Origin: a phage
Sequence record: PZ445450.1
Reading direction: 5' to 3' (one strand)
Length of the DNA stretch: 64,000 nt
Below the pieces are notes generated by a model that was not told the DNA's origin, did not search any database, and saw nothing but the letters and a program-made list of their open reading frames with translations. Below, piece by piece: positions 14,106 to 24,916 of the stretch. Both the position numbers and the translations under genes were made by a program. Every line of letters starts with the position of its first letter. Position 1 is the first letter of the stretch.

Positions 14106-14138
14106 TAAAAAAGGGGCCAAACGGCCCCTTTCTTTTTA
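14106..14138. terminator. Bidirectional rho-independent terminator between convergent genes
   Basis: Stem AAGGGGCC/GGCCCCTT with AAAC loop, flanked by A-run upstream and T-run downstream. Confidence 0.75.
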
Positions 14139-14917: not shown

Positions 14918-15298
14918 TTATGACACTTTTACGTAGCGCTCTGACAGGGCTGGAAAGCCAAAAGCAGTACCTATACTACCGTACGCTACCCACCATTGAA
15001 GTTCATCGTGACACCATTTTCCGATCAGGAAGGTGCTGGGGTAGCGGGTCAGTATTTTGGCATAAGCTTTAGGGTCTGCATCTTCTGGGATAATGATACT
15101 TGGAACATCTTTGTTATGACCACAGCAGCAGTTTAGAGTTTTCAATCCTGCCGCCCATAGACTCATGATAGGCTTAACCATGCACTTATCAAGGCACACA
15201 CGTTTTTTGCCGTCACGGAGCTTTTTAGGCACATCAACGATAACATTTTGATGCTTGGCACCTTTCACTTTCCAATTATAGGATTTACACTTGCACAT
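14918..15298 (-). CDS. Cys-rich hypothetical protein
   Basis: 126-aa ORF with CKCK and LNCCCGHNKD clusters; GGAG upstream. Confidence 0.45.
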   Translation of the reverse strand: MCKCKSYNWKVKGAKHQNVIVDVPKKLRDGKKRVCLDKCMVKPIMSLWAAGLKTLNCCCGHNKDVPSIIIPEDADPKAYAKILTRYPSTFLIGKWCHDELQWWVAYGSIGTAFGFPALSERYVKVS

Positions 15299-15975: not shown

Positions 15976-16247
15976 ACCTTCTCGTTGATAAATTTACGGG
16001 CGGTTTGGTGAGTTGTTTCTGCTGTCTTCAGAATAATATTAATTTTATTGTCAAGATCATTCATCTCTGCAGTTAATTCAGGAATCTCCCCGGCATGCAT
16101 AGTGAAATCATACATAGACATGCCCAGAATCTCATTGATGCGGCGGTTGCATTCTGCAGCACGCTGGTTCATTTTCCAAGCTAACACCAAAGCCTCCTGC
16201 GTAGCCTCTAGTGCAAAATCTAATACGTCGGCCTCTTCTTTCGTCAT
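15972..16247 (-). CDS. Hypothetical protein
   Basis: Start moved to internal ATG 16247 with AGGAGA RBS; the track's longer form overlaps the next gene by 236 nt. Confidence 0.45.
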   Translation of the reverse strand: MTKEEADVLDFALEATQEALVLAWKMNQRAAECNRRINEILGMSMYDFTMHAGEIPELTAEMNDLDNKINIILKTAETTHQTARKFINEKV

Positions 16248-16302
16248 CTTTCTCTCCTGTTGTATTGTTGGTAGGTGTATGAATACCTTATAACCCACCT
16301 TT

Positions 16303-16869
16303 TTATTCAAACTGCAATAGTAAGTCCACCACCGCGCTAGGTCTGTCAACAAATTCCCCAGGTCCACATGCCCACAGAGGGTATCCGTCCACATACCGCC
16401 AAATCCAACCTGCAGTGTGGAGTTCGAGCAGGGCAGTACCGTCCTTACTGTCAACCACTCTTTCCCACAGTGTTGGGCAGCGAAGCTTGAGAATCGGATC
16501 ACCTCCCTTATACCCGTCCATGTAGATACCCATTGCAAAGTTCAGCATCATCTTTTTGTGCACTGATCTCTTACTGAGGGTGCTCATCACTTCCTCTTTG
16601 TGAATGTTTGTAAGCTTCTCTTTGGCTACCCGCAGATCGTTGCAACCATTGTTCAGCAGATCTTCCAGACACTTGATCCGGAGGTCGTGAATGTCTTTGT
16701 CGTGTACCGTTGGCACAGGGTCGTAGCGGTATAGCACTGTTGATACAAGGTTGCTCGGGTGTGGGTCTGACAGCAACCCATAACCCCAATACTCTTCTGT
16801 ATCTGAAAGGACAAGACACCCAATGTCTCTGTCAAGCTTTCCTGTGTTGTAAGCCACATTGACCGCCAT
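16303..16869 (-). CDS. Hypothetical protein (188 aa)
   Basis: ORF with GGAG upstream of ATG; no confident motif. Confidence 0.45.
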   Translation of the reverse strand: MAVNVAYNTGKLDRDIGCLVLSDTEEYWGYGLLSDPHPSNLVSTVLYRYDPVPTVHDKDIHDLRIKCLEDLLNNGCNDLRVAKEKLTNIHKEEVMSTLSKRSVHKKMMLNFAMGIYMDGYKGGDPILKLRCPTLWERVVDSKDGTALLELHTAGWIWRYVDGYPLWACGPGEFVDRPSAVVDLLLQFE

Positions 16870-16871
16870 GA

Positions 16872-17117
16872 CTATAGCTCCACTAGCAAAGTGCTTTCAA
16901 AGTGCCGTTCATGCAGACCGTTGTAAGGGACCACTTCCACAACACCATCACGGACATACGGGGCCATCATAGTGGTATAATCTCCAAACGGGTTGGTATT
17001 GTCACTAACCACAACCACCTTCTGCCCTTCCTTGGCAGAGTGCCAAATAGATCTACACTTCATCAGGTGTTCGAGAGCTCCAGGTAAAATTTTGTTACGT
17101 TCTTTACGGGTCTTCAT
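16872..17117 (-). CDS. Hypothetical protein
   Basis: 81-aa ORF tightly packed in leftward operon. Confidence 0.4.
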   Translation of the reverse strand: MKTRKERNKILPGALEHLMKCRSIWHSAKEGQKVVVVSDNTNPFGDYTTMMAPYVRDGVVEVVPYNGLHERHFESTLLVEL

Positions 17118-17563
17118 AACAGATATAGCTCCTTATGAAAGTGGTCTTTTAATTTCTCACTGAGAAACTTCTTGATACCTTCCTCTAAAGTGTTTTCGAT
17201 GTAGTCCAGCTTAACTGCTTCGATGGACATATCATAGATTGCCAGCTCTAAGCTGTCAAGTCCCATCATAGCATGAACCATAAGATTTTCATCTTCAGAT
17301 ACATTCAGGGGACTTCCTATAACATCTGGAGGCAGAATAGTTTCCCAATTATTCTGGGTGGTAGTTCTCCCGCCATCTACTTTACGGCGCAGTTCGAATG
17401 TGTTCTTAGTGTAGAACACTTCATAAGAAACGATACGACTGTCACTCTCATAATAAACGAAGTTCAGGTAGGAGCCTAGCCGCAGTCGGCAAACTTCCAC
17501 CCCAAACCATTGTTTCTTATAAGAATTCAGGCTAATGCTGTCGCATTCACGTTTGCTCAACAC
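17114..17563 (-). CDS. Hypothetical protein
   Basis: 149-aa ORF, 4-nt overlap with downstream gene. Confidence 0.4.
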   Translation of the reverse strand: MLSKRECDSISLNSYKKQWFGVEVCRLRLGSYLNFVYYESDSRIVSYEVFYTKNTFELRRKVDGGRTTTQNNWETILPPDVIGSPLNVSEDENLMVHAMMGLDSLELAIYDMSIEAVKLDYIENTLEEGIKKFLSEKLKDHFHKELYLL

Positions 17564-17579
17564 GGCTATCTCCTTTTTG

Positions 17580-17813
17580 TTAATCTTCGTAAATCAGGAT
17601 TTCTGCTTTAGGTTTTCGTGCTTTCAGGTCCAGCTCTATCCAGTGCACCACAGCTGTTTCAAGAAAAACAGCTTGGATGCATCCGTCCTCAGCGTGCCCC
17701 ACCAACATAACGAGATCTTCACCTTCGTCATCTGCATCACGAACATAAAGAATCTCTCCAGATTCGAAGTCTTTCACAACCTGATTGCTAGATAATTTTC
17801 GAATTTTTGCCAT
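17580..17813 (-). CDS. Hypothetical small protein, possible distant relative of the 87-aa triplet
   Basis: 77-aa ORF adjacent to the tandem triplet. Confidence 0.4.
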   Translation of the reverse strand: MAKIRKLSSNQVVKDFESGEILYVRDADDEGEDLVMLVGHAEDGCIQAVFLETAVVHWIELDLKARKPKAEILIYED

Positions 17814-17814
17814 A

Positions 17815-18078
17815 TCAGAAACCCTCTAAAAAGCTCTTGTAGAAAACAATCTCAGTATCCACACCAGTCACAATCTTGTCGTTCCTGATTTCATCGGTAA
17901 GATAGGTGTCAAAACGCAGAACCTGTGTGGTGTTGTCACACATCCACTCAGCTGTGACCATTGCGAAAATCTTAGCATCTTCATTATCTGGTGTGAATGT
18001 TACCACCTCACCGCACTTAAACTTTTCGATAGGCTGAGTGTTAGCTTTCGGTTCTGCGATAGTGATTTTTGTGGTCAT
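17815..18078 (-). CDS. Small protein, tandem paralog 1 of 3
   Basis: Exactly 264 nt like its two neighbours; shared pattern PGTVV / CGEVV ... ILGE. Confidence 0.5.
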   Translation of the reverse strand: MTTKITIAEPKANTQPIEKFKCGEVVTFTPDNEDAKIFAMVTAEWMCDNTTQVLRFDTYLTDEIRNDKIVTGVDTEIVFYKSFLEGF

Positions 18079-18341
18079 TATTCTCCTCCTTCTTTTGAAT
18101 AGCTTGTCTCTCCAAGGATGGTAATTTTGGTGTCAAGCTCTGTAACTTTCATGTTTGGCGGCAGATCGTACAACTCATTATTTTCTAAATCGAACCCCCA
18201 CACACAATGTTCTCCTGTTTTGACAATCATAACTATGTTTTGAATGCCGTCTCCGTCGCAACTTACCACGGTCCCACACGGAAAACTGTCTGCACGCTTT
18301 TTGTTCTTCACCTTAGAATTGAATACAATGCTGGTAGCCAT
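18078..18341 (-). CDS. Small protein, tandem paralog 2 of 3
   Basis: 264-nt ORF; start/stop overlap with neighbours; conserved CGTVV..IVMIVK..ILGE. Confidence 0.5.
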   Translation of the reverse strand: MATSIVFNSKVKNKKRADSFPCGTVVSCDGDGIQNIVMIVKTGEHCVWGFDLENNELYDLPPNMKVTELDTKITILGETSYSKEGGE

Positions 18342-18604
18342 TATTGTTCCTCCACCATAACTTCGCCAAGAATTTCTATGCAGGCATCCATTTCTGTAAC
18401 AACCAAACTGTGAGGTAGTTCTACAAACACCTTTCTGAACAGATCAAATACCCCAACATATATGTTTGCAGGATGTGATTTTACAACAAGTGCTGTATTC
18501 ACATCCCCAAGTTCATCAACAAACATCACCACAGTGCCTGGAGCTACTGAGGACAGATACTTCTTAGTTTTACGGTTTGATGCAAATTTTAACTCTGTTG
18601 CCAT
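18341..18604 (-). CDS. Small protein, tandem paralog 3 of 3
   Basis: 264-nt ORF; conserved PGTVV..ALVVK..ILGE. Confidence 0.5.
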   Translation of the reverse strand: MATELKFASNRKTKKYLSSVAPGTVVMFVDELGDVNTALVVKSHPANIYVGVFDLFRKVFVELPHSLVVTEMDACIEILGEVMVEEQ

Positions 18605-18619
18605 AAATAACCTCCTCTC

Positions 18620-20080
18620 TTACTTAGCGTACTCGATTAATTCCACAGTTTTCCCAAAGCTCGGGATATAATTTTTATTATACCCTTCAGTTAGGACCCA
18701 TAGAGTATCGTACTTTTTCCACTTGTTGTCAACAGCCTTTTGTTCAAAGTTATGCTCAAAGTATAGGTCGGTCAGGACGATGACATCTTTTGCATTCGGT
18801 ATGTTGGCATCCAGATACTCGAACACGCAAGCAGCTGTTGTGCCCCATGTTGAGTGGACCTCATAGTTGATCATCTCGTCTATGTTGCCGCGAGTGTATA
18901 CTTTAACCTCTCCAACCTCAGTTGACCAACAGAACATTGTAACCTTAAACTCTTTATACAGATTGCACAATCCGGTGATTTCATTGAACATTTTCTTTAA
19001 AGTTCTTTGAGAGATCGAGCCAGAAACGTCTAAAGCTACAACAATATCTATGGTGTTTTCCGGATTACGACCAGGAACAATAACGTGCTGGTTCTTGTTT
19101 ATAGCCCCAACTTTTCGCATTGTGCTGGTCAAAGACCCAGATCGGCGACCAGGTTTTCTGTAGGTCAGTTCAGCCTTTCGTTTAGACAACATGCGTTGCT
19201 TAATGATGTCTATATAGTTGATTACAGGCTTACCCCTGTTCTTGACAAACTCACGCACCGCCTCAGGGCAACGACCTCCGGAAGCTTGCATTGCTGCTTC
19301 CAGCATGTCACCAGAGTCTTGCATGGCCTGATCTTTATCAGATTGGCTGATTACAGGTTGTGGCTGATCATACCCCATAGCCTTTCCGAGATCATCACTG
19401 GTGCCACCGTTCCCACTCATGTGATCATCGGTTTGTCGCTTATCCCCCTGAGAGTTATCACCTTTACCACTCTTACTTTTACCGTTATTCTGATCTCTTT
19501 GCTTATCAAGAACTGCATAGACGTTCTCAGCAATCCATCCATGAAACCTCATGTCGCAGTAGCAGCTGGCTAAGAAACCAAAAGGCTTACCTTTTACGAA
19601 CGTAGTGCTTTTCCCCTTCGGGAAGAAAACACAAGGAGGCTTGCTAAAGTCCACCACAAGGCCTGTGTTGATAACGTGATCACAAGCAATATTGAACAGC
19701 TCTGGCTCAAAGCTTTTACCACGGACTAGGTGATCACAGATAATATGCCCCACCTCATGTGACAGAAGAAAGGCCACCTCTTTCACAGATTTGGGGGAAT
19801 AGAAAACCTCAGCCATTTCAAACTGCTCGTCAGTCAGAGATGCTTTAAGAATTGTTTTGCGCTCATCTGCCAATCCCATAATGAATTCGGGGCTGTAGTA
19901 GATGCGTTTATGGTCGGTTGCCATGGTGGAGCACCATGTGTGGTTTTCTACGAACTGCAACCCTGACAGCAGTGTGCCGTAAAACGGCAGCTTTTCAAGG
20001 AGATACATACGTGCAGCCTGCAACATTCTCAGGGCATCATCTTTTTGTGAGGCAATGATTTCTGAACTTCTGCTATCCAT
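18620..20080 (-). CDS. vWA-domain protein with N-terminal HExxH metallopeptidase-like motif
   Basis: HEVGHIICDH zinc-peptidase motif; C-terminal MIDAS-like VVALDVSGSIS; ATG 20080 with GGAG preferred over track TTG 20101. Confidence 0.65.
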   Translation of the reverse strand: MDSRSSEIIASQKDDALRMLQAARMYLLEKLPFYGTLLSGLQFVENHTWCSTMATDHKRIYYSPEFIMGLADERKTILKASLTDEQFEMAEVFYSPKSVKEVAFLLSHEVGHIICDHLVRGKSFEPELFNIACDHVINTGLVVDFSKPPCVFFPKGKSTTFVKGKPFGFLASCYCDMRFHGWIAENVYAVLDKQRDQNNGKSKSGKGDNSQGDKRQTDDHMSGNGGTSDDLGKAMGYDQPQPVISQSDKDQAMQDSGDMLEAAMQASGGRCPEAVREFVKNRGKPVINYIDIIKQRMLSKRKAELTYRKPGRRSGSLTSTMRKVGAINKNQHVIVPGRNPENTIDIVVALDVSGSISQRTLKKMFNEITGLCNLYKEFKVTMFCWSTEVGEVKVYTRGNIDEMINYEVHSTWGTTAACVFEYLDANIPNAKDVIVLTDLYFEHNFEQKAVDNKWKKYDTLWVLTEGYNKNYIPSFGKTVELIEYAK

Positions 20081-20113
20081 TAAAACTCCAGAAGGGGCCA
20101 ATGGCCCCTGTCA

Positions 20114-21091
20114 TTATTTAACGTGTTTGAAAATACCTGCCAACTCTGTCATTGTCATGCGGGTGGTCTTCATAAGATCTGTCATAGCTTTCTCCATAAT
20201 TGGAGATACTACCATAAAGTTACCTTTGGTGAAACCTTTATTCCAGTCGGTCACTAACAGGGGCTTAAGTCCAGCTCCGAGACGTTCACCAGTTAAAGCA
20301 CAGCATTTGCGAACATACGAACTCTTAAATTGGCTGAACGACAGATCAACTTTCATACCTGCATCGTAGAACGTTTGACAATAGAAAGTGTAAGCCTTAG
20401 CAACCTCAACATCATCAGGCAGTGCAGGAACCTCTTCTGCAATCTCCTCTTCGACCTCCTGAGGCTCTTTTTCCTCTTCAGAGTTCTGTTCTCCAATTTC
20501 TTCTGTCACAGTTTCGTTTACGATGTCTGAAATGTGTTTGTTGGCTGCACGATCAGCCATGAAATTTTTAAAGTCCTGCATTGGTGACATATCTTCTTCC
20601 TCTTCGTCAAAAAGTGCTAGTTTATCTTCTTCTGTCCCATATTGCAAGATGAAGTCTTCAAAAGTATAATCACCTTTCAATTTCTCCATACGCTCTTCGC
20701 TCAGGTGAAGCATCATCTGCTGGACAATTTTTCGATCAGTTTTGTCTTTTATCAATATTGCAGTCTTTTTATCTACCAGACAGTCTTTCAGAGCGTTGCA
20801 CCTCAACCCTACCACACAACAATTGTCAATTGCGTAAGGACCTTCATCATCTATCCGCTCCAGAGATGGGTAGAAAGGATTCCCCAGCCCGTTTTCATCT
20901 GTGTGCATGTCGAAAGGTATAAGGGTATAGTCGCATACCCCCTCTCCTAAAAGTTTTTTACCAAATAGGAGGTATTCTTCCCATGACAGGTTGAACTCTA
21001 TATCTCGTTTCCGTGCATTATTTTGTTTGCGTCTGTATTTTTTGAGCAGGCGCTCTAACTCTTCTGGTGTATAATATTTTTCAAGATTCAT
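20114..21091 (-). CDS. Nuclease-like protein with acidic linker (tentative)
   Basis: ERIDDEGPYAIDNCCVV..CNALK resembles HNH/AP2-type nuclease spacing but lacks the canonical His; central EEEEDM..EEEKEPQEVEEE; start set at ATG 21091. Confidence 0.35.
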   Translation of the reverse strand: MNLEKYYTPEELERLLKKYRRKQNNARKRDIEFNLSWEEYLLFGKKLLGEGVCDYTLIPFDMHTDENGLGNPFYPSLERIDDEGPYAIDNCCVVGLRCNALKDCLVDKKTAILIKDKTDRKIVQQMMLHLSEERMEKLKGDYTFEDFILQYGTEEDKLALFDEEEEDMSPMQDFKNFMADRAANKHISDIVNETVTEEIGEQNSEEEKEPQEVEEEIAEEVPALPDDVEVAKAYTFYCQTFYDAGMKVDLSFSQFKSSYVRKCCALTGERLGAGLKPLLVTDWNKGFTKGNFMVVSPIMEKAMTDLMKTTRMTMTELAGIFKHVK

Positions 21092-23462: not shown

Positions 23463-23732
23463 ATGTTATACCAGCAATATGAACTTCGTGCAGAAAAAGA
23501 GTTAAATTTTGACAAAGATATTCACAGATATTATTATGGGAAAGTTAGAGGGCAAGCAAGAAAGTGTACTCCAACACTCTTTTATGCCAGCAGACGACTA
23601 GCGCCAGAAGAGGCAACAGCAGAAAGGGTTGCGTACAACTGGAGAGTCACGTATGATATTGATAGATCCGATGTAATATCTGTTTTGGAAAACTTTGAAA
23701 ACACTTACACACAAGTAGAGGACTTTTACTAA
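23463..23732 (+). CDS. Hypothetical protein
   Basis: 89-aa ORF; stop overlaps start of the AAA ATPase gene. Confidence 0.4.
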   Translation: MLYQQYELRAEKELNFDKDIHRYYYGKVRGQARKCTPTLFYASRRLAPEEATAERVAYNWRVTYDIDRSDVISVLENFENTYTQVEDFY

Positions 23733-24916
23733 TGTCAAGAAACGTATTCGAAAGTGGTCAAATCACTGTCCGTGAGTTGCCAGCTATTATTCAGTTTGCC
23801 CAACGTCATAGCCGATCTGTCCTAATTTTGGGACCAATGGGTGTAGGTAAAAGCCAGGTGATGAAGCAGATCGCTGATAATATGTTCGGTGAGCGAGATG
23901 ACAACCTTGTTGACGTGCGACTGTCAGATAAAGATCCTGCCGACTTATCTGGGCTACCTATCCCTGTAGAAGCGGATGGAACTACACGTACAGTGTTTGC
24001 AATTCCAGAATTTTGGCCTGCGGATCCTGACTGGAGCGGAATTATCTTTCTGGATGAGCTCACTCATGCAGATAACTACCTGCAAAAGGTTGCAATGCAA
24101 ATTATGCTTGACCACAAGTGCGGTACTTATGCATTCCCTAAGGGGTCTGTTTTTGTGGCTGCTGGTAACCGTTCTACAGATGGTGCGGTTCTTTCGGCGC
24201 TCGAAGCCCCTCTGGCTAACCGTTTTATCATTGTAGAGGTTACAAGCAATGCAGAGGTGTTTATTGAGGACTACGCATTCCTTAATGGGGTGCACTCCTC
24301 TGTAATTGGATATCTGAAAAGAGTTCCATCAGCTATCGATAATTATGAGGCCATGGCTGAGATTAATTGTCCATCTTTTGCCACACCGCGATCTTGGGTT
24401 GCTGCATCTGATATCTTGCACGATTTTGACAGCGGTATTATTTCTGACGCTATGGCCCGTGTTCTTCTGCAAGGTGCTATTGGTCACACTGCAGCGGTAG
24501 AGATCTGGACTTACCACACCAAGAAACGCAACTTACCGGAAATCGGTCGGATTATGGCAGGAGGTTGCAAAGAATACGTAGGTCCTAAACAGCCAGACAT
24601 CTTGTGGATTCTTGGATCTGAAGGTTGCATCGCTATTCGTAATATGATGGAAAATGCAAGTATCTCCGACGAAGATCTTGTTAGCTGTGTGGCAAACTTT
24701 CTCGATTTCCTTTGGGAAAACTTCAAGGACGAGAACCGAGATTTTGTATTTTCAGTCTTTATGGCGATGATGAAACCTAATGCCTTAGGAAATGCCTTGC
24801 TTATCGGTAAAGGTCGTGACAAGATCGTTGCTCAGCTGATCAAAGCATACCCAAACCTGATGAAGATTGTAAAAGAGTTTGGTGAAGAGTTTAGCGCCAT
24901 TTTGGCTAAAGCTTAA
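23732..24916 (+). CDS. AAA+ ATPase (MoxR/CbbQ-like)
   Basis: Walker A GPMGVGKS, Walker B IIFLDEL; about 390 aa typical of MoxR-type ATPases that pair with vWA proteins. Confidence 0.7.
   Translation: MSRNVFESGQITVRELPAIIQFAQRHSRSVLILGPMGVGKSQVMKQIADNMFGERDDNLVDVRLSDKDPADLSGLPIPVEADGTTRTVFAIPEFWPADPDWSGIIFLDELTHADNYLQKVAMQIMLDHKCGTYAFPKGSVFVAAGNRSTDGAVLSALEAPLANRFIIVEVTSNAEVFIEDYAFLNGVHSSVIGYLKRVPSAIDNYEAMAEINCPSFATPRSWVAASDILHDFDSGIISDAMARVLLQGAIGHTAAVEIWTYHTKKRNLPEIGRIMAGGCKEYVGPKQPDILWILGSEGCIAIRNMMENASISDEDLVSCVANFLDFLWENFKDENRDFVFSVFMAMMKPNALGNALLIGKGRDKIVAQLIKAYPNLMKIVKEFGEEFSAILAKA

What the first reader, a model, noticed from the sequence alone, without database searches (positions are those of the whole stretch)
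17815..18604. Tandem triplication of a 264-bp gene
Three consecutive minus-strand ORFs of identical length with overlapping stop/start and a conserved skeleton (PGTVV..VK..G.DL..ILGE) but divergent surfaces. Tandem diversified small paralogs in phages often mark arms-race loci such as defence inhibitors or receptor-binding accessories.
Basis: seen in the sequence. Interest (0 to 1): 0.6.

Follow-up and report, generated by a model that had tools for sequence, protein, structure and literature searches.

The report
Four small paralogous phage accessory genes
An rV5-like E. coli phage carries four (not three) anciently duplicated, dispensable small genes in a row; they encode acidic SH3-like barrel proteins of unknown function, and the first slot is swapped as a cassette between near-identical phages.

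Summary
The window is a Vequintavirus (rV5-like E. coli myophage, 97.8% identical to BASEL phage DrSchubert). The three 264-bp minus-strand ORFs exist exactly as described.

- Copies 1 (A) and 2 (B) are clear paralogs: 39% identity, BLASTP E=1e-12.
- Copy 3 (rV5 gp15) shows no BLASTP similarity to A or B. Profile methods show it is a real distant paralog.
- The next gene, gp16 (17580-17813), is a fourth paralog.
- There is no nucleotide-level repeat, so the duplications are ancient.

The family is tiny and confined to rV5-like phages. Copy number runs from 1 to 4. Of 117 sequenced relatives, 43 carry A+B and 74 carry a single third subtype, C. The swap is sharply bounded within backbones that are 94-100% identical.

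A and B evolve under relaxed purifying selection (omega 0.15-0.30). gp15 and gp16 are strongly conserved (omega 0.01-0.13).

The A model (pLDDT 80) is a generic SH3/Tudor-like small beta-barrel. All members are acidic.

Published transposon data for the C-haplotype phage Bas54 show the C, gp15 and gp16 orthologs are non-essential on K-12 and not required on one uropathogenic strain.

The most likely role is small host-factor-binding accessory proteins. An anti-defence role is possible but unproven.

The parts
18341..18604 (-). Paralog A (87 aa, phrog_10698), first gene of the array. Part of the A+B cassette that alternates with a single C-type gene in other Vequintavirus genomes.
   Evidence: ORF and SD sequence. 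39% identical to B, E=1e-12. At least 93% identical copies in 43 of 117 phage records. AF2 model pLDDT 80, all-beta, SH3/Tudor-like.
18078..18341 (-). Paralog B (87 aa, phrog_10698). Always found together with A.
   Evidence: B at 90% identity or more occurs in the same 43 records as A. B' (P0017, 64% identical) is paired with A' in a diverged lineage.
17815..18078 (-). Paralog 3 (87 aa, rV5 gp15 ortholog, phrog_12861). A distant but highly conserved member.
   Evidence: hhalign probability 87-93%, far above the shuffle null. HMM E=6.5e-7. Omega about 0.01 with high dS. At least 93% identical in all 117 records.
17580..17813 (-). Paralog 4 (77 aa, rV5 gp16 ortholog, phrog_12046). The most divergent member; it lacks the N-terminal arm.
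   Evidence: HMM E=2e-4 (A/B/C-only model) and 3e-7 (with gp15), the only other hit among 377 ORFs. hhalign score 25.1 versus null 10 +/- 2.2, max 17.5.
18605..18619 (-). Left boundary of the variable cassette: the gp12 stop, SD sequence GAGAGGAGG and spacer. Sequence identity with rV5 continues through the first four codons (ATGGCAACAGAG, MATE) and is then lost.
   Evidence: Junction comparison. Sliding nucleotide identity drops from 94-99% to about 50% at about 18600 and recovers at about 18080.
18620..20080 (-). Context: gp12, a DUF2201_N metallopeptidase plus a DUF2201 VWA-like domain. It sits immediately upstream of the array in all Vequintavirus haplotypes.
   Evidence: Pfam 7e-28 and 4e-11. 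The Bas54 ortholog is depleted on UPEC CFE311 (log2FC -2.20, q=0.009), together with the MoxR ATPase.
20114..21091 (-). Context: gp11, the Srd-like 'anti-sigma factor' and first gene of the operon.
   Evidence: Annotations in DrSchubert and rV5. rV5 paper PMC3606486.
21123..21151 (-). Sigma70-type promoter-like site (TTGACA-17-TAAGAT with an extended -10 TG) at the head of the gp11-gp26 transcription unit.
   Evidence: It matches promoter P11, annotated in rV5, and the bidirectional promoters described in PMC3606486.
14107..14134 (.). Bidirectional intrinsic terminator that closes the operon against the convergent tail-fibre gene.
   Evidence: [quoted passage not shown]

Best explanation
Window 17580-18604 holds a tandem array of four anciently duplicated genes (A, B, gp15-type, gp16-type). 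Each encodes a roughly 80-aa acidic, single-domain SH3/Tudor-like small beta-barrel protein. The array lies in a dispensable operon with a sigma70-type promoter (gp11 to gp26) in an rV5-like phage.

The family evolves by gene birth and death, with 1 to 4 copies in relatives. It also evolves by homologous-recombination swapping of the first slot (A+B versus C) between otherwise near-identical genomes. The gp15 and gp16 types are held nearly constant.

Inferred mechanism: the proteins are made early by host RNA polymerase and act independently as stoichiometric protein binders of host factors, for host takeover or counter-defence. The variable first slot would track a strain-variable host target, and gp15 and gp16 would bind conserved targets.

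Shown: gene structure, paralogy, narrow distribution, cassette polymorphism, selection regimes, fold class of A, dispensability of the orthologs. Inferred: early timing, the binder mechanism, and the nature of the targets. My confidence is about 0.9 for the descriptive part and about 0.35 for the mechanism.
For: Paralogy.

Narrow family: 23 proteins from the word-indexed search of 5.8 billion clusters. Six genuine family members were the only hits in an exhaustive HMMER scan of 1.84 billion representatives. Only 2 IMG/VR loci.

Copy number 1 to 4 and variable position.

Cassette: 43 A+B versus 74 C. Sharp boundaries. Discordant haplotypes between nearest relatives: isim versus AlexBoehm, O157 typing phage 5 versus DrSchubert, Murica versus Pr121LW.

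Selection: A omega 0.24-0.30 and B 0.15. Neighbours are 0.01-0.09, apart from a few comparisons resting on one or two substitutions. gp15 is 0.01 and gp16 is 0.03-0.13.

Charge: all members have pI 4.2-5.7, with a basic N-terminal arm in the A/B/C types. This favours protein binding over nucleic-acid binding.

Operon: sigma70-type promoter and terminator.

Dispensability: Bas54 orthologs had 12/12, 13/15 and 17/17 TA sites hit and were classed non-essential.

Neighbourhood: it contains a validated counter-defence gene (MoxR against DS-28) and a conditionally required gp12.
Against: - There is no functional datum for any member.
- The C, gp15 and gp16 orthologs gave no significant phenotype on UPEC CFE311 (log2FC +0.46, +0.33, -1.32; q at least 0.68).
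- No pairwise omega exceeds 1.
- A versus A' and B versus B' have diverged about as much as the neighbouring genes have (56-64% versus 55-61% aa identity for gp11, gp17 and gp19; gp12 is 82%). So A and B are not obviously faster than the local background in that comparison.
- Early expression is inferred from promoter consensus only.
- The fold assignment rests on one model built from a 9-sequence alignment, and the copy 3 model failed.
- The SH3-like fold is too generic to imply a particular partner.
Confidence: 0.45

Rival explanations
1. The array is a set of nearly neutral, dispensable ORFan duplicates. The A+B/C polymorphism simply reflects recombination among diverged Vequintavirus lineages and is not driven by host selection. 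The proteins have a minor or redundant housekeeping role.
For: All pairwise omega values are below 1. A/A' and B/B' divergence resembles that of the neighbouring genes. The orthologs are non-essential and show no conditional phenotype on CFE311. Mosaicism is common along this operon.
Against: All subtypes keep intact ORFs, SD sequences and purifying selection across lineages with saturated dS. A and B co-occur in 43 of 43 records and in the diverged A'/B' lineage. gp15 is far more conserved than its surroundings. The divergence is confined exactly to the gene slot.
Confidence: 0.25
2. The small barrels are adaptors or regulatory subunits of the phage gp12 (VWA-metallopeptidase)/MoxR ATPase machine, which counters the DS-28 defence system. 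Different paralogs would deliver different substrates.
For: A family member directly follows the DUF2201 gene in every Vequintavirus haplotype and in the single-copy relative L006. MoxR is needed on CFE311 and gp12 is significantly depleted there. MoxR was validated against DS-28.
Against: On the same host the C and gp15 orthologs are not depleted (log2FC +0.46 and +0.33). In L014 the gene after DUF2201 is not a family member, and the gp15-like gene sits elsewhere. In L009 a C-like member sits in an unrelated context.
Confidence: 0.12
3. They are nucleic-acid-binding regulators, like KOW, Sm or ribosomal L2 C-domain barrels, that modulate transcription or translation of phage or host messages.
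Against: All members are acidic overall, with a barrel net charge of -4 to -12. There is no sequence match to any RNA- or DNA-binding family in Pfam, NCBIfam or the PDB. The structural hits are equally good to protein-binding Tudor and SH3 domains.
Confidence: 0.08
4. They are receptor-binding accessories or virion components.
For: The operon ends next to a lateral tail-fibre gene. The neighbouring gp17 carries a 'tail protein' label in PHROGs and RefSeq.
Against: The genes are transcribed convergently to the tail-fibre gene and are separated from it by a bidirectional terminator. gp14-16 are not among the virion proteins named in the main text of the rV5 proteomics paper. They are non-essential, with no effect on a host where tail-fibre genes did score. 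No signal peptide or structural motif is evident in the sequences.
Confidence: 0.03

Closest known systems
PHROG families 10698 (A, B, C types), 12861 (gp15 type) and 12046 (gp16 type), all 'unknown function'
   Same: Full-length matches with E from 1e-41 to 1e-62. These are the same proteins as annotated in rV5-like genomes.
   Different: PHROGs keeps them as three unrelated families. Here they are shown to be one superfamily arranged as a tandem array. PHROGs attaches no function.
SH3-like / Tudor-like small beta-barrel fold (e.g. SMN Tudor 1g5v, PHF19 Tudor 6wau, TDRD3 3pnw, UvrD C-terminal Tudor 7egs, ribosomal L2 C-domain)
   Different: There is no sequence relationship (Pfam, NCBIfam and PDB searches negative). 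Foldseek E is at least 0.04. The Tudor aromatic cage was not examined. The proteins are acidic, unlike the RNA-binding L2 and KOW domains. There is an extra N-terminal beta-hairpin arm.
Uncharacterised roughly 70-90-aa phage proteins with the same predicted fold in BFVD (Vibrio phage Thalassa, Serratia phage Hera, Escherichia phages SU7, Paul, LAMP, EP335, and others)
   Same: Foldseek E from 1e-3 to 2e-2, TM 0.5-0.66, similar size. This suggests a widespread class of small barrel ORFans in phage accessory regions.
   Different: Sequence identity is 8-23%, none of them is characterised, and homology is not established.
Variable small-gene cassettes of phage accessory or anti-defence regions, such as anti-CRISPR loci and T-even hyperplastic regions (comparison from general knowledge, not tested here)
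   Same: Small acidic proteins, tandem arrangement, presence/absence and allelic replacement between near-identical genomes, conserved flanks, dispensability in the laboratory.
   Different: There is no adjacent Aca-like HTH regulator and no demonstrated inhibition of any defence. Two of the four members are hyper-conserved rather than variable.
MoxR ATPase (bas54_0063) counter-defence against DS-28 in Vequintavirus Bas54 (HIDEN-SEQ preprint, 10.1101/2025.11.20.689424)
   Same: Same phage genus and the same accessory neighbourhood. Its presumed partner, the VWA/metallopeptidase gp12, is the gene directly upstream of the array.
   Different: The array's orthologs were not conditionally essential in that screen. 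There is no sequence or fold relation.

Membership tests
phrog_10698 (unknown function) | Full-length match to the family HMM | tested here: met
   A 7.6e-43 and B 4.8e-41, covering 1-87 of 87. Copy 3 matches only weakly (E=0.078).
phrog_12861 / phrog_12046 (unknown function) | Full-length match to the family HMM | tested here: met
   Copy 3 8.8e-62 and gp16 4.2e-54.
One tandem paralog superfamily (A, B, C, gp15, gp16) | Statistically significant end-to-end profile similarity between subtypes, beyond composition | tested here: met
   hhalign scores 39.6 (gp15) and 25.1 (gp16) against column-shuffle nulls of 10 +/- 2 with maxima 21.1 and 17.5. In an HMM scan of 377 window ORFs, only these four hit.
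SH3-like / Tudor small beta-barrel fold | Five-stranded, highly bent antiparallel barrel that superposes on solved members | tested here: inconclusive
Tudor domain (Pfam-level family) | Sequence membership and an aromatic cage that binds methylated Lys or Arg | tested here: not met
   No Pfam, NCBIfam or PDB sequence hit. The cage residues were not examined.
KOW / ribosomal L2 C-domain RNA-binding barrels | Basic surface and family sequence motifs | tested here: not met
   pI 4.2-5.7 and barrel net charge -4 to -12. No Pfam match.
Known anti-phage defence system components (PADLOC-DB) | Match to a defence-protein HMM | tested here: not met
   No families at E<=0.1 for all four paralogs, gp11 and gp12.
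Known anti-defence proteins (Acr, Ocr/Ard, Gad, Tad, Acb and others) | Homology to a characterised inhibitor, or a demonstrated inhibition phenotype | not testable with these tools
   No anti-defence library was available. Pfam, PHROGs and BFVD gave only uncharacterised matches. The only phenotype data (Bas54 on CFE311) are negative for the orthologs.
Arms-race (diversifying-selection) locus | dN/dS above 1 or an excess of non-synonymous change, plus allelic turnover | tested here: inconclusive
   Allelic turnover at the first slot is met. Omega is raised relative to the neighbours but stays below 1 (A 0.24-0.30, B 0.15). gp15 and gp16 are strongly constrained. Site-level tests were not possible.

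The most novel reading that the evidence does not exclude
The family is a phage-specific, diversifiable SH3-like binder scaffold. On this reading the interchangeable A+B and C cassettes encode strain-specific inhibitors of E. coli immune systems, making them a new anti-defence family. A and B would work as an obligate pair. The hyper-conserved gp15 and gp16 paralogs would neutralise conserved host factors.
Probability: 0.2. Interest if true: 0.6.

Novelty: new member of a known kind. Interest (0 to 1): 0.35.

Why it matters
rV5-like phages are among the most frequently isolated E. coli phages and are candidates for therapy, yet most of their accessory genes have no known function. This analysis does three things.

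- It merges three 'unknown' PHROG families into one four-gene paralog array.
- It identifies a sharply bounded cassette polymorphism (A+B versus C) at intermediate frequency among near-identical genomes.
- It shows that both haplotypes already exist in the BASEL collection, which has transposon and knockout tools.

Together these make a direct host-range or counter-defence test cheap. If the cassette proves to be a defence inhibitor, it would add a new fold and family to the anti-defence repertoire. It would also help predict the host range of Vequintavirus. If not, the array is an ordinary case of birth-and-death evolution of phage ORFans.

Tried and rejected
- AF2 model of copy 3 from an 11-sequence alignment: pLDDT 40 and unusable, so folds could not be compared between paralogs.
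- Foldseek against afdb50: the library was unavailable.
- Pfam, NCBIfam, PADLOC and the PDB sequence search: only sub-threshold noise.
- Nucleotide repeat search: no homologous repeat. One 17-nt chance match was out of register.
- IMG/VR scan: only 2 loci, both of the C haplotype.
- Two long repetitive proteins (P0032, P0033) in the exhaustive search were dismissed as low-complexity artefacts.
- gp18 (81 aa) and all other window ORFs were tested as further paralogs and rejected.
- Literature: no paper mentions these genes apart from the HIDEN-SEQ tables. The CFE303 comparison could not be read, because supplementary sheets S6 and S7 hold identical CFE311 numbers.
- I considered correlating BASEL EOP raw data with haplotype (7 A+B versus 4 C phages). 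I did not do it: the data exist, but the sample is small and confounded by phylogeny.
- The idea that A and B are simply the fastest-evolving genes was tempered. Against the L011 lineage they diverge about as much as gp11, gp17 and gp19 do, and it is gp15 and gp16 that are anomalously conserved.

Full report
**What the window is.** Window 16000-21000 is 97.8% identical to Escherichia phage DrSchubert (BASEL Bas50). It is 96-98% identical to more than 100 other Vequintavirus (rV5-like) genomes. In those records the three ORFs are annotated as hypothetical proteins. They lie downstream of an Srd-like 'anti-sigma factor' (rV5 gp11) and a DUF2201 metallopeptidase/VWA protein (gp12). They lie upstream of further small hypothetical genes.

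**Checking the observation.**
- The ORF listing and the sequence confirm three minus-strand ORFs of exactly 264 bp, at 18341-18604 (A), 18078-18341 (B) and 17815-18078 (copy 3, the rV5 gp15 ortholog). The junctions are TAATG overlaps.
- A and B are clear paralogs: 39% identity, E=1e-12, both in phrog_10698.
- Copy 3 has no BLASTP similarity to either and belongs to phrog_12861. The quoted 'skeleton' therefore applies to A and B only.
- Profile methods nevertheless show real, distant homology. hhalign of an A/B/C-type alignment against a gp15 alignment gives 87-93% probability, end to end. The score is 35-40, against 10 +/- 2 (maxima 18-21) for 200-300 column shuffles.
- An HMM built only from A/B/C-type sequences, scanned over all 377 window ORFs of at least 45 aa, finds B, A, copy 3 (6.5e-7) and the next gene, gp16 at 17580-17813 (2e-4). 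The best unrelated ORF scores 0.53.
- The array therefore has four members, not three.
- There is no nucleotide-level repeat, and A versus B is 45% identical at the DNA level. The duplications are old.
- Relatives are 83-89 aa long, so the equal lengths here are partly coincidental.

**Translation signals.** The glycine- and acid-rich C-terminal tails (VEEQ, KEGGE) are encoded by the GGAGG Shine-Dalgarno sequence of the following gene. This explains part of the apparent conservation at the C-terminus.

**Distribution and copy number.**
- The family is extremely narrow. The word-indexed search of 5.8 billion clusters gave 23 proteins. An exhaustive HMMER scan of 1.84 billion representatives gave six genuine hits. 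IMG/VR gave two loci.
- Among 117 phage records, 43 carry A+B and 74 carry a single third subtype, C (rV5 gp14), about 40% identical to both A and B.
- Copy 3 is at least 93% identical in all 117 records.
- Other states:
  - A'+B'+gp15+gp16 in a diverged lineage (L011-L013).
  - A single member, S, between gp12 and gp17 in a distant 123-kb contig (L006).
  - A C-like member in an unrelated context (L009).
  - A lone gp15-like gene upstream of the gp11 homolog in another phage (L014).

- A neighbour-joining tree gives robust A, B and C clades in an unresolved trichotomy. S is their sister, and gp15 and then gp16 lie outside.

**The cassette.**
- Nucleotide identity between the window and rV5, FV3 or Pr121LW is 92-100% through the 3' end of gp12. 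It falls to about 50% exactly across 18080-18600.
- Identity is 86-96% in gp15. Against rV5 and Pr121LW it then returns to 94-100% from gp16 onward; FV3 stays at about 80-97% downstream.
- The left boundary lies just after the shared first four codons (ATGGCAACAGAG). The right boundary is the TAATG junction with gp15.
- Nearest relatives differ in haplotype: isim (A+B) versus AlexBoehm (C), O157 typing phage 5 (C) versus DrSchubert (A+B), and Murica (A+B) versus Pr121LW (C, same species). The slot is therefore exchanged repeatedly by recombination.

**Selection.**
- Within subtypes, A has omega 0.24-0.30 and B has 0.15.
- Neighbouring genes have omega 0.01-0.09, apart from a few comparisons that rest on one or two substitutions.
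- gp15 has omega about 0.01 despite dS of 0.35-0.68 or saturation. gp16 has 0.03-0.13.
- Against the L011 lineage, A (56%) and B (64%) have diverged about as much as gp11, gp17 and gp19 (55-61%). In the same comparison gp15 (98%) and gp16 (94%) are outliers of conservation.
- The gp15-like protein of L014 is 81% identical, although that phage's gp11 and gp12 are only 37-46% identical.
- The picture is mixed: a variable, recombining first slot sits next to two hyper-conserved paralogs. No comparison gives omega above 1.

**Structure and chemistry.**
- AlphaFold2 on A with a 9-sequence alignment gives pLDDT 80 and an all-beta fold.
- BFVD returns many uncharacterised 70-90-aa phage proteins.
- The copy 3 model failed, with pLDDT 40.
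- Pfam, NCBIfam, PADLOC and PDB sequence searches are negative.
- All members are acidic, with pI 4.2-5.7. The A/B/C types have a short basic N-terminal arm. This argues against KOW- or L2-like RNA binding and is typical of small protein-binding phage factors.

**Genomic and experimental context.**
- The array lies in the gp11-gp26 transcription unit. A strong sigma70-like promoter sits at 21151-21123 and a bidirectional terminator at 14107-14134, as described for rV5 (PMC3606486). Early expression is inferred, not shown.
- The HIDEN-SEQ preprint (10.1101/2025.11.20.689424) mapped transposon insertions in Bas54 (MaxBurger), a C-haplotype phage.
  - bas54_0054 (C), bas54_0053 (gp15) and bas54_0052 (gp16) had 17/17, 13/15 and 12/12 TA sites hit. 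All three are classed non-essential on K-12.
  - On UPEC CFE311 their log2FC values are +0.46, +0.33 and -1.32, none significant.
  - On the same host, MoxR ATPase (-7.23, q=0) and gp12 (-2.20, q=0.009) are depleted.
  - MoxR and bas54_0140 were validated as required against DS-28.
- gp14-16 are not among the virion proteins named in the main text of the rV5 proteomics paper.

**Interpretation.** The descriptive conclusion is secure: an ancient four-member tandem family of small acidic barrel proteins in a dispensable accessory operon, evolving by birth and death and by cassette exchange. The mechanism is inferred. I favour independent, stoichiometric binding of host proteins, for takeover or counter-defence. 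The recombining first slot would track a variable host target, and gp15 and gp16 would bind conserved ones.

Rivals considered:
- Near-neutral ORFan turnover.
- Adaptor subunits of the gp12/MoxR machine. This is weakened by the CFE311 data and by broken linkage in L009 and L014.
- Nucleic-acid binding, weakened by the acidity of the proteins.
- A virion or receptor role, weakened by operon structure and by the absence of gp14-16 from the virion proteins named in the rV5 paper.

**Verdict.** The arms-race reading is partly supported for A and B only. This is a new, uncharacterised member of a familiar kind of feature, the small paralogous accessory gene cassettes of lytic phages. Its interest is moderate, mainly because it is directly testable with existing BASEL phages of both haplotypes.

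Noticed in passing
window 17815-18078; L014:4001-4279: The gp15-type protein is 81% identical between this phage and a distant relative whose gp11 and gp12 are only 37-46% identical. Within Vequintavirus it shows dS of 0.35-0.68 (or saturation) with omega about 0.01. This is either unusually strong constraint or horizontal transfer of a small ORFan.
   Followed up: partly
window 16000-21000 (matches in GenBank MG0656xx records): Sixteen records named 'Campylobacter phage', with host given as C. jejuni, are more than 90% identical (most 95-99%) to E. coli rV5-like phages across this region. The host label looks doubtful.
   Followed up: no
L006:1119-2258 (also L007): A divergent rV5-like metagenomic contig carries an IS605 OrfB/TnpB-like gene (Pfam Cas12f1-like_TNB). 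It is inserted just upstream of the gp11-like gene, at the head of the same operon.
   Followed up: no
window 18620-20080 and 20114-21091: RefSeq and PHROGs label gp11 and gp12 as 'HNH endonuclease', but gp12 is clearly a DUF2201_N metallopeptidase plus a VWA-like domain. The rV5 reference splits gp12 into gp012 and gp013, probably through a frameshift, whereas here it is one 486-aa ORF.
   Followed up: partly
window 17114-17563: gp17 is labelled 'tail protein' (phrog_6790), but it sits in the accessory operon and is non-essential in Bas54. It also shows a non-significant depletion on UPEC CFE311 (log2FC -2.28, q=0.195), similar in size to that of gp12.
   Followed up: no
window 23732-24916 (+ strand MoxR ATPase) and 18620-20080 (gp12): The MoxR ATPase ortholog is a published counter-defence gene against DS-28 in Bas54. 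Its likely VWA partner, gp12, is encoded about 3.6 kb away in the divergent operon and is also depleted on the same host.
   Followed up: partly
window 18704-18732 (- strand): A 10/12 sigma70 promoter-like site (TTGACA-17-GATACT) lies inside the 3' end of gp12, about 100 nt upstream of paralog A. It could be an internal promoter for the array.
   Followed up: no
HIDEN-SEQ preprint, Extended Data Table 8, sheets S6 and S7: The sheet labelled K-12 versus CFE303 holds the same numbers, and the same command line, as the CFE311 comparison. The CFE303 results for Bas54 are therefore not recoverable from the supplement.
   Followed up: yes
L009:1355-2052 and L014:3558-4279: In more distant phages, family members sit next to a conserved Cys-rich 142-aa protein (homolog at window 15032-15298) rather than next to gp12. 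The small barrel genes therefore relocate within accessory regions.
   Followed up: partly
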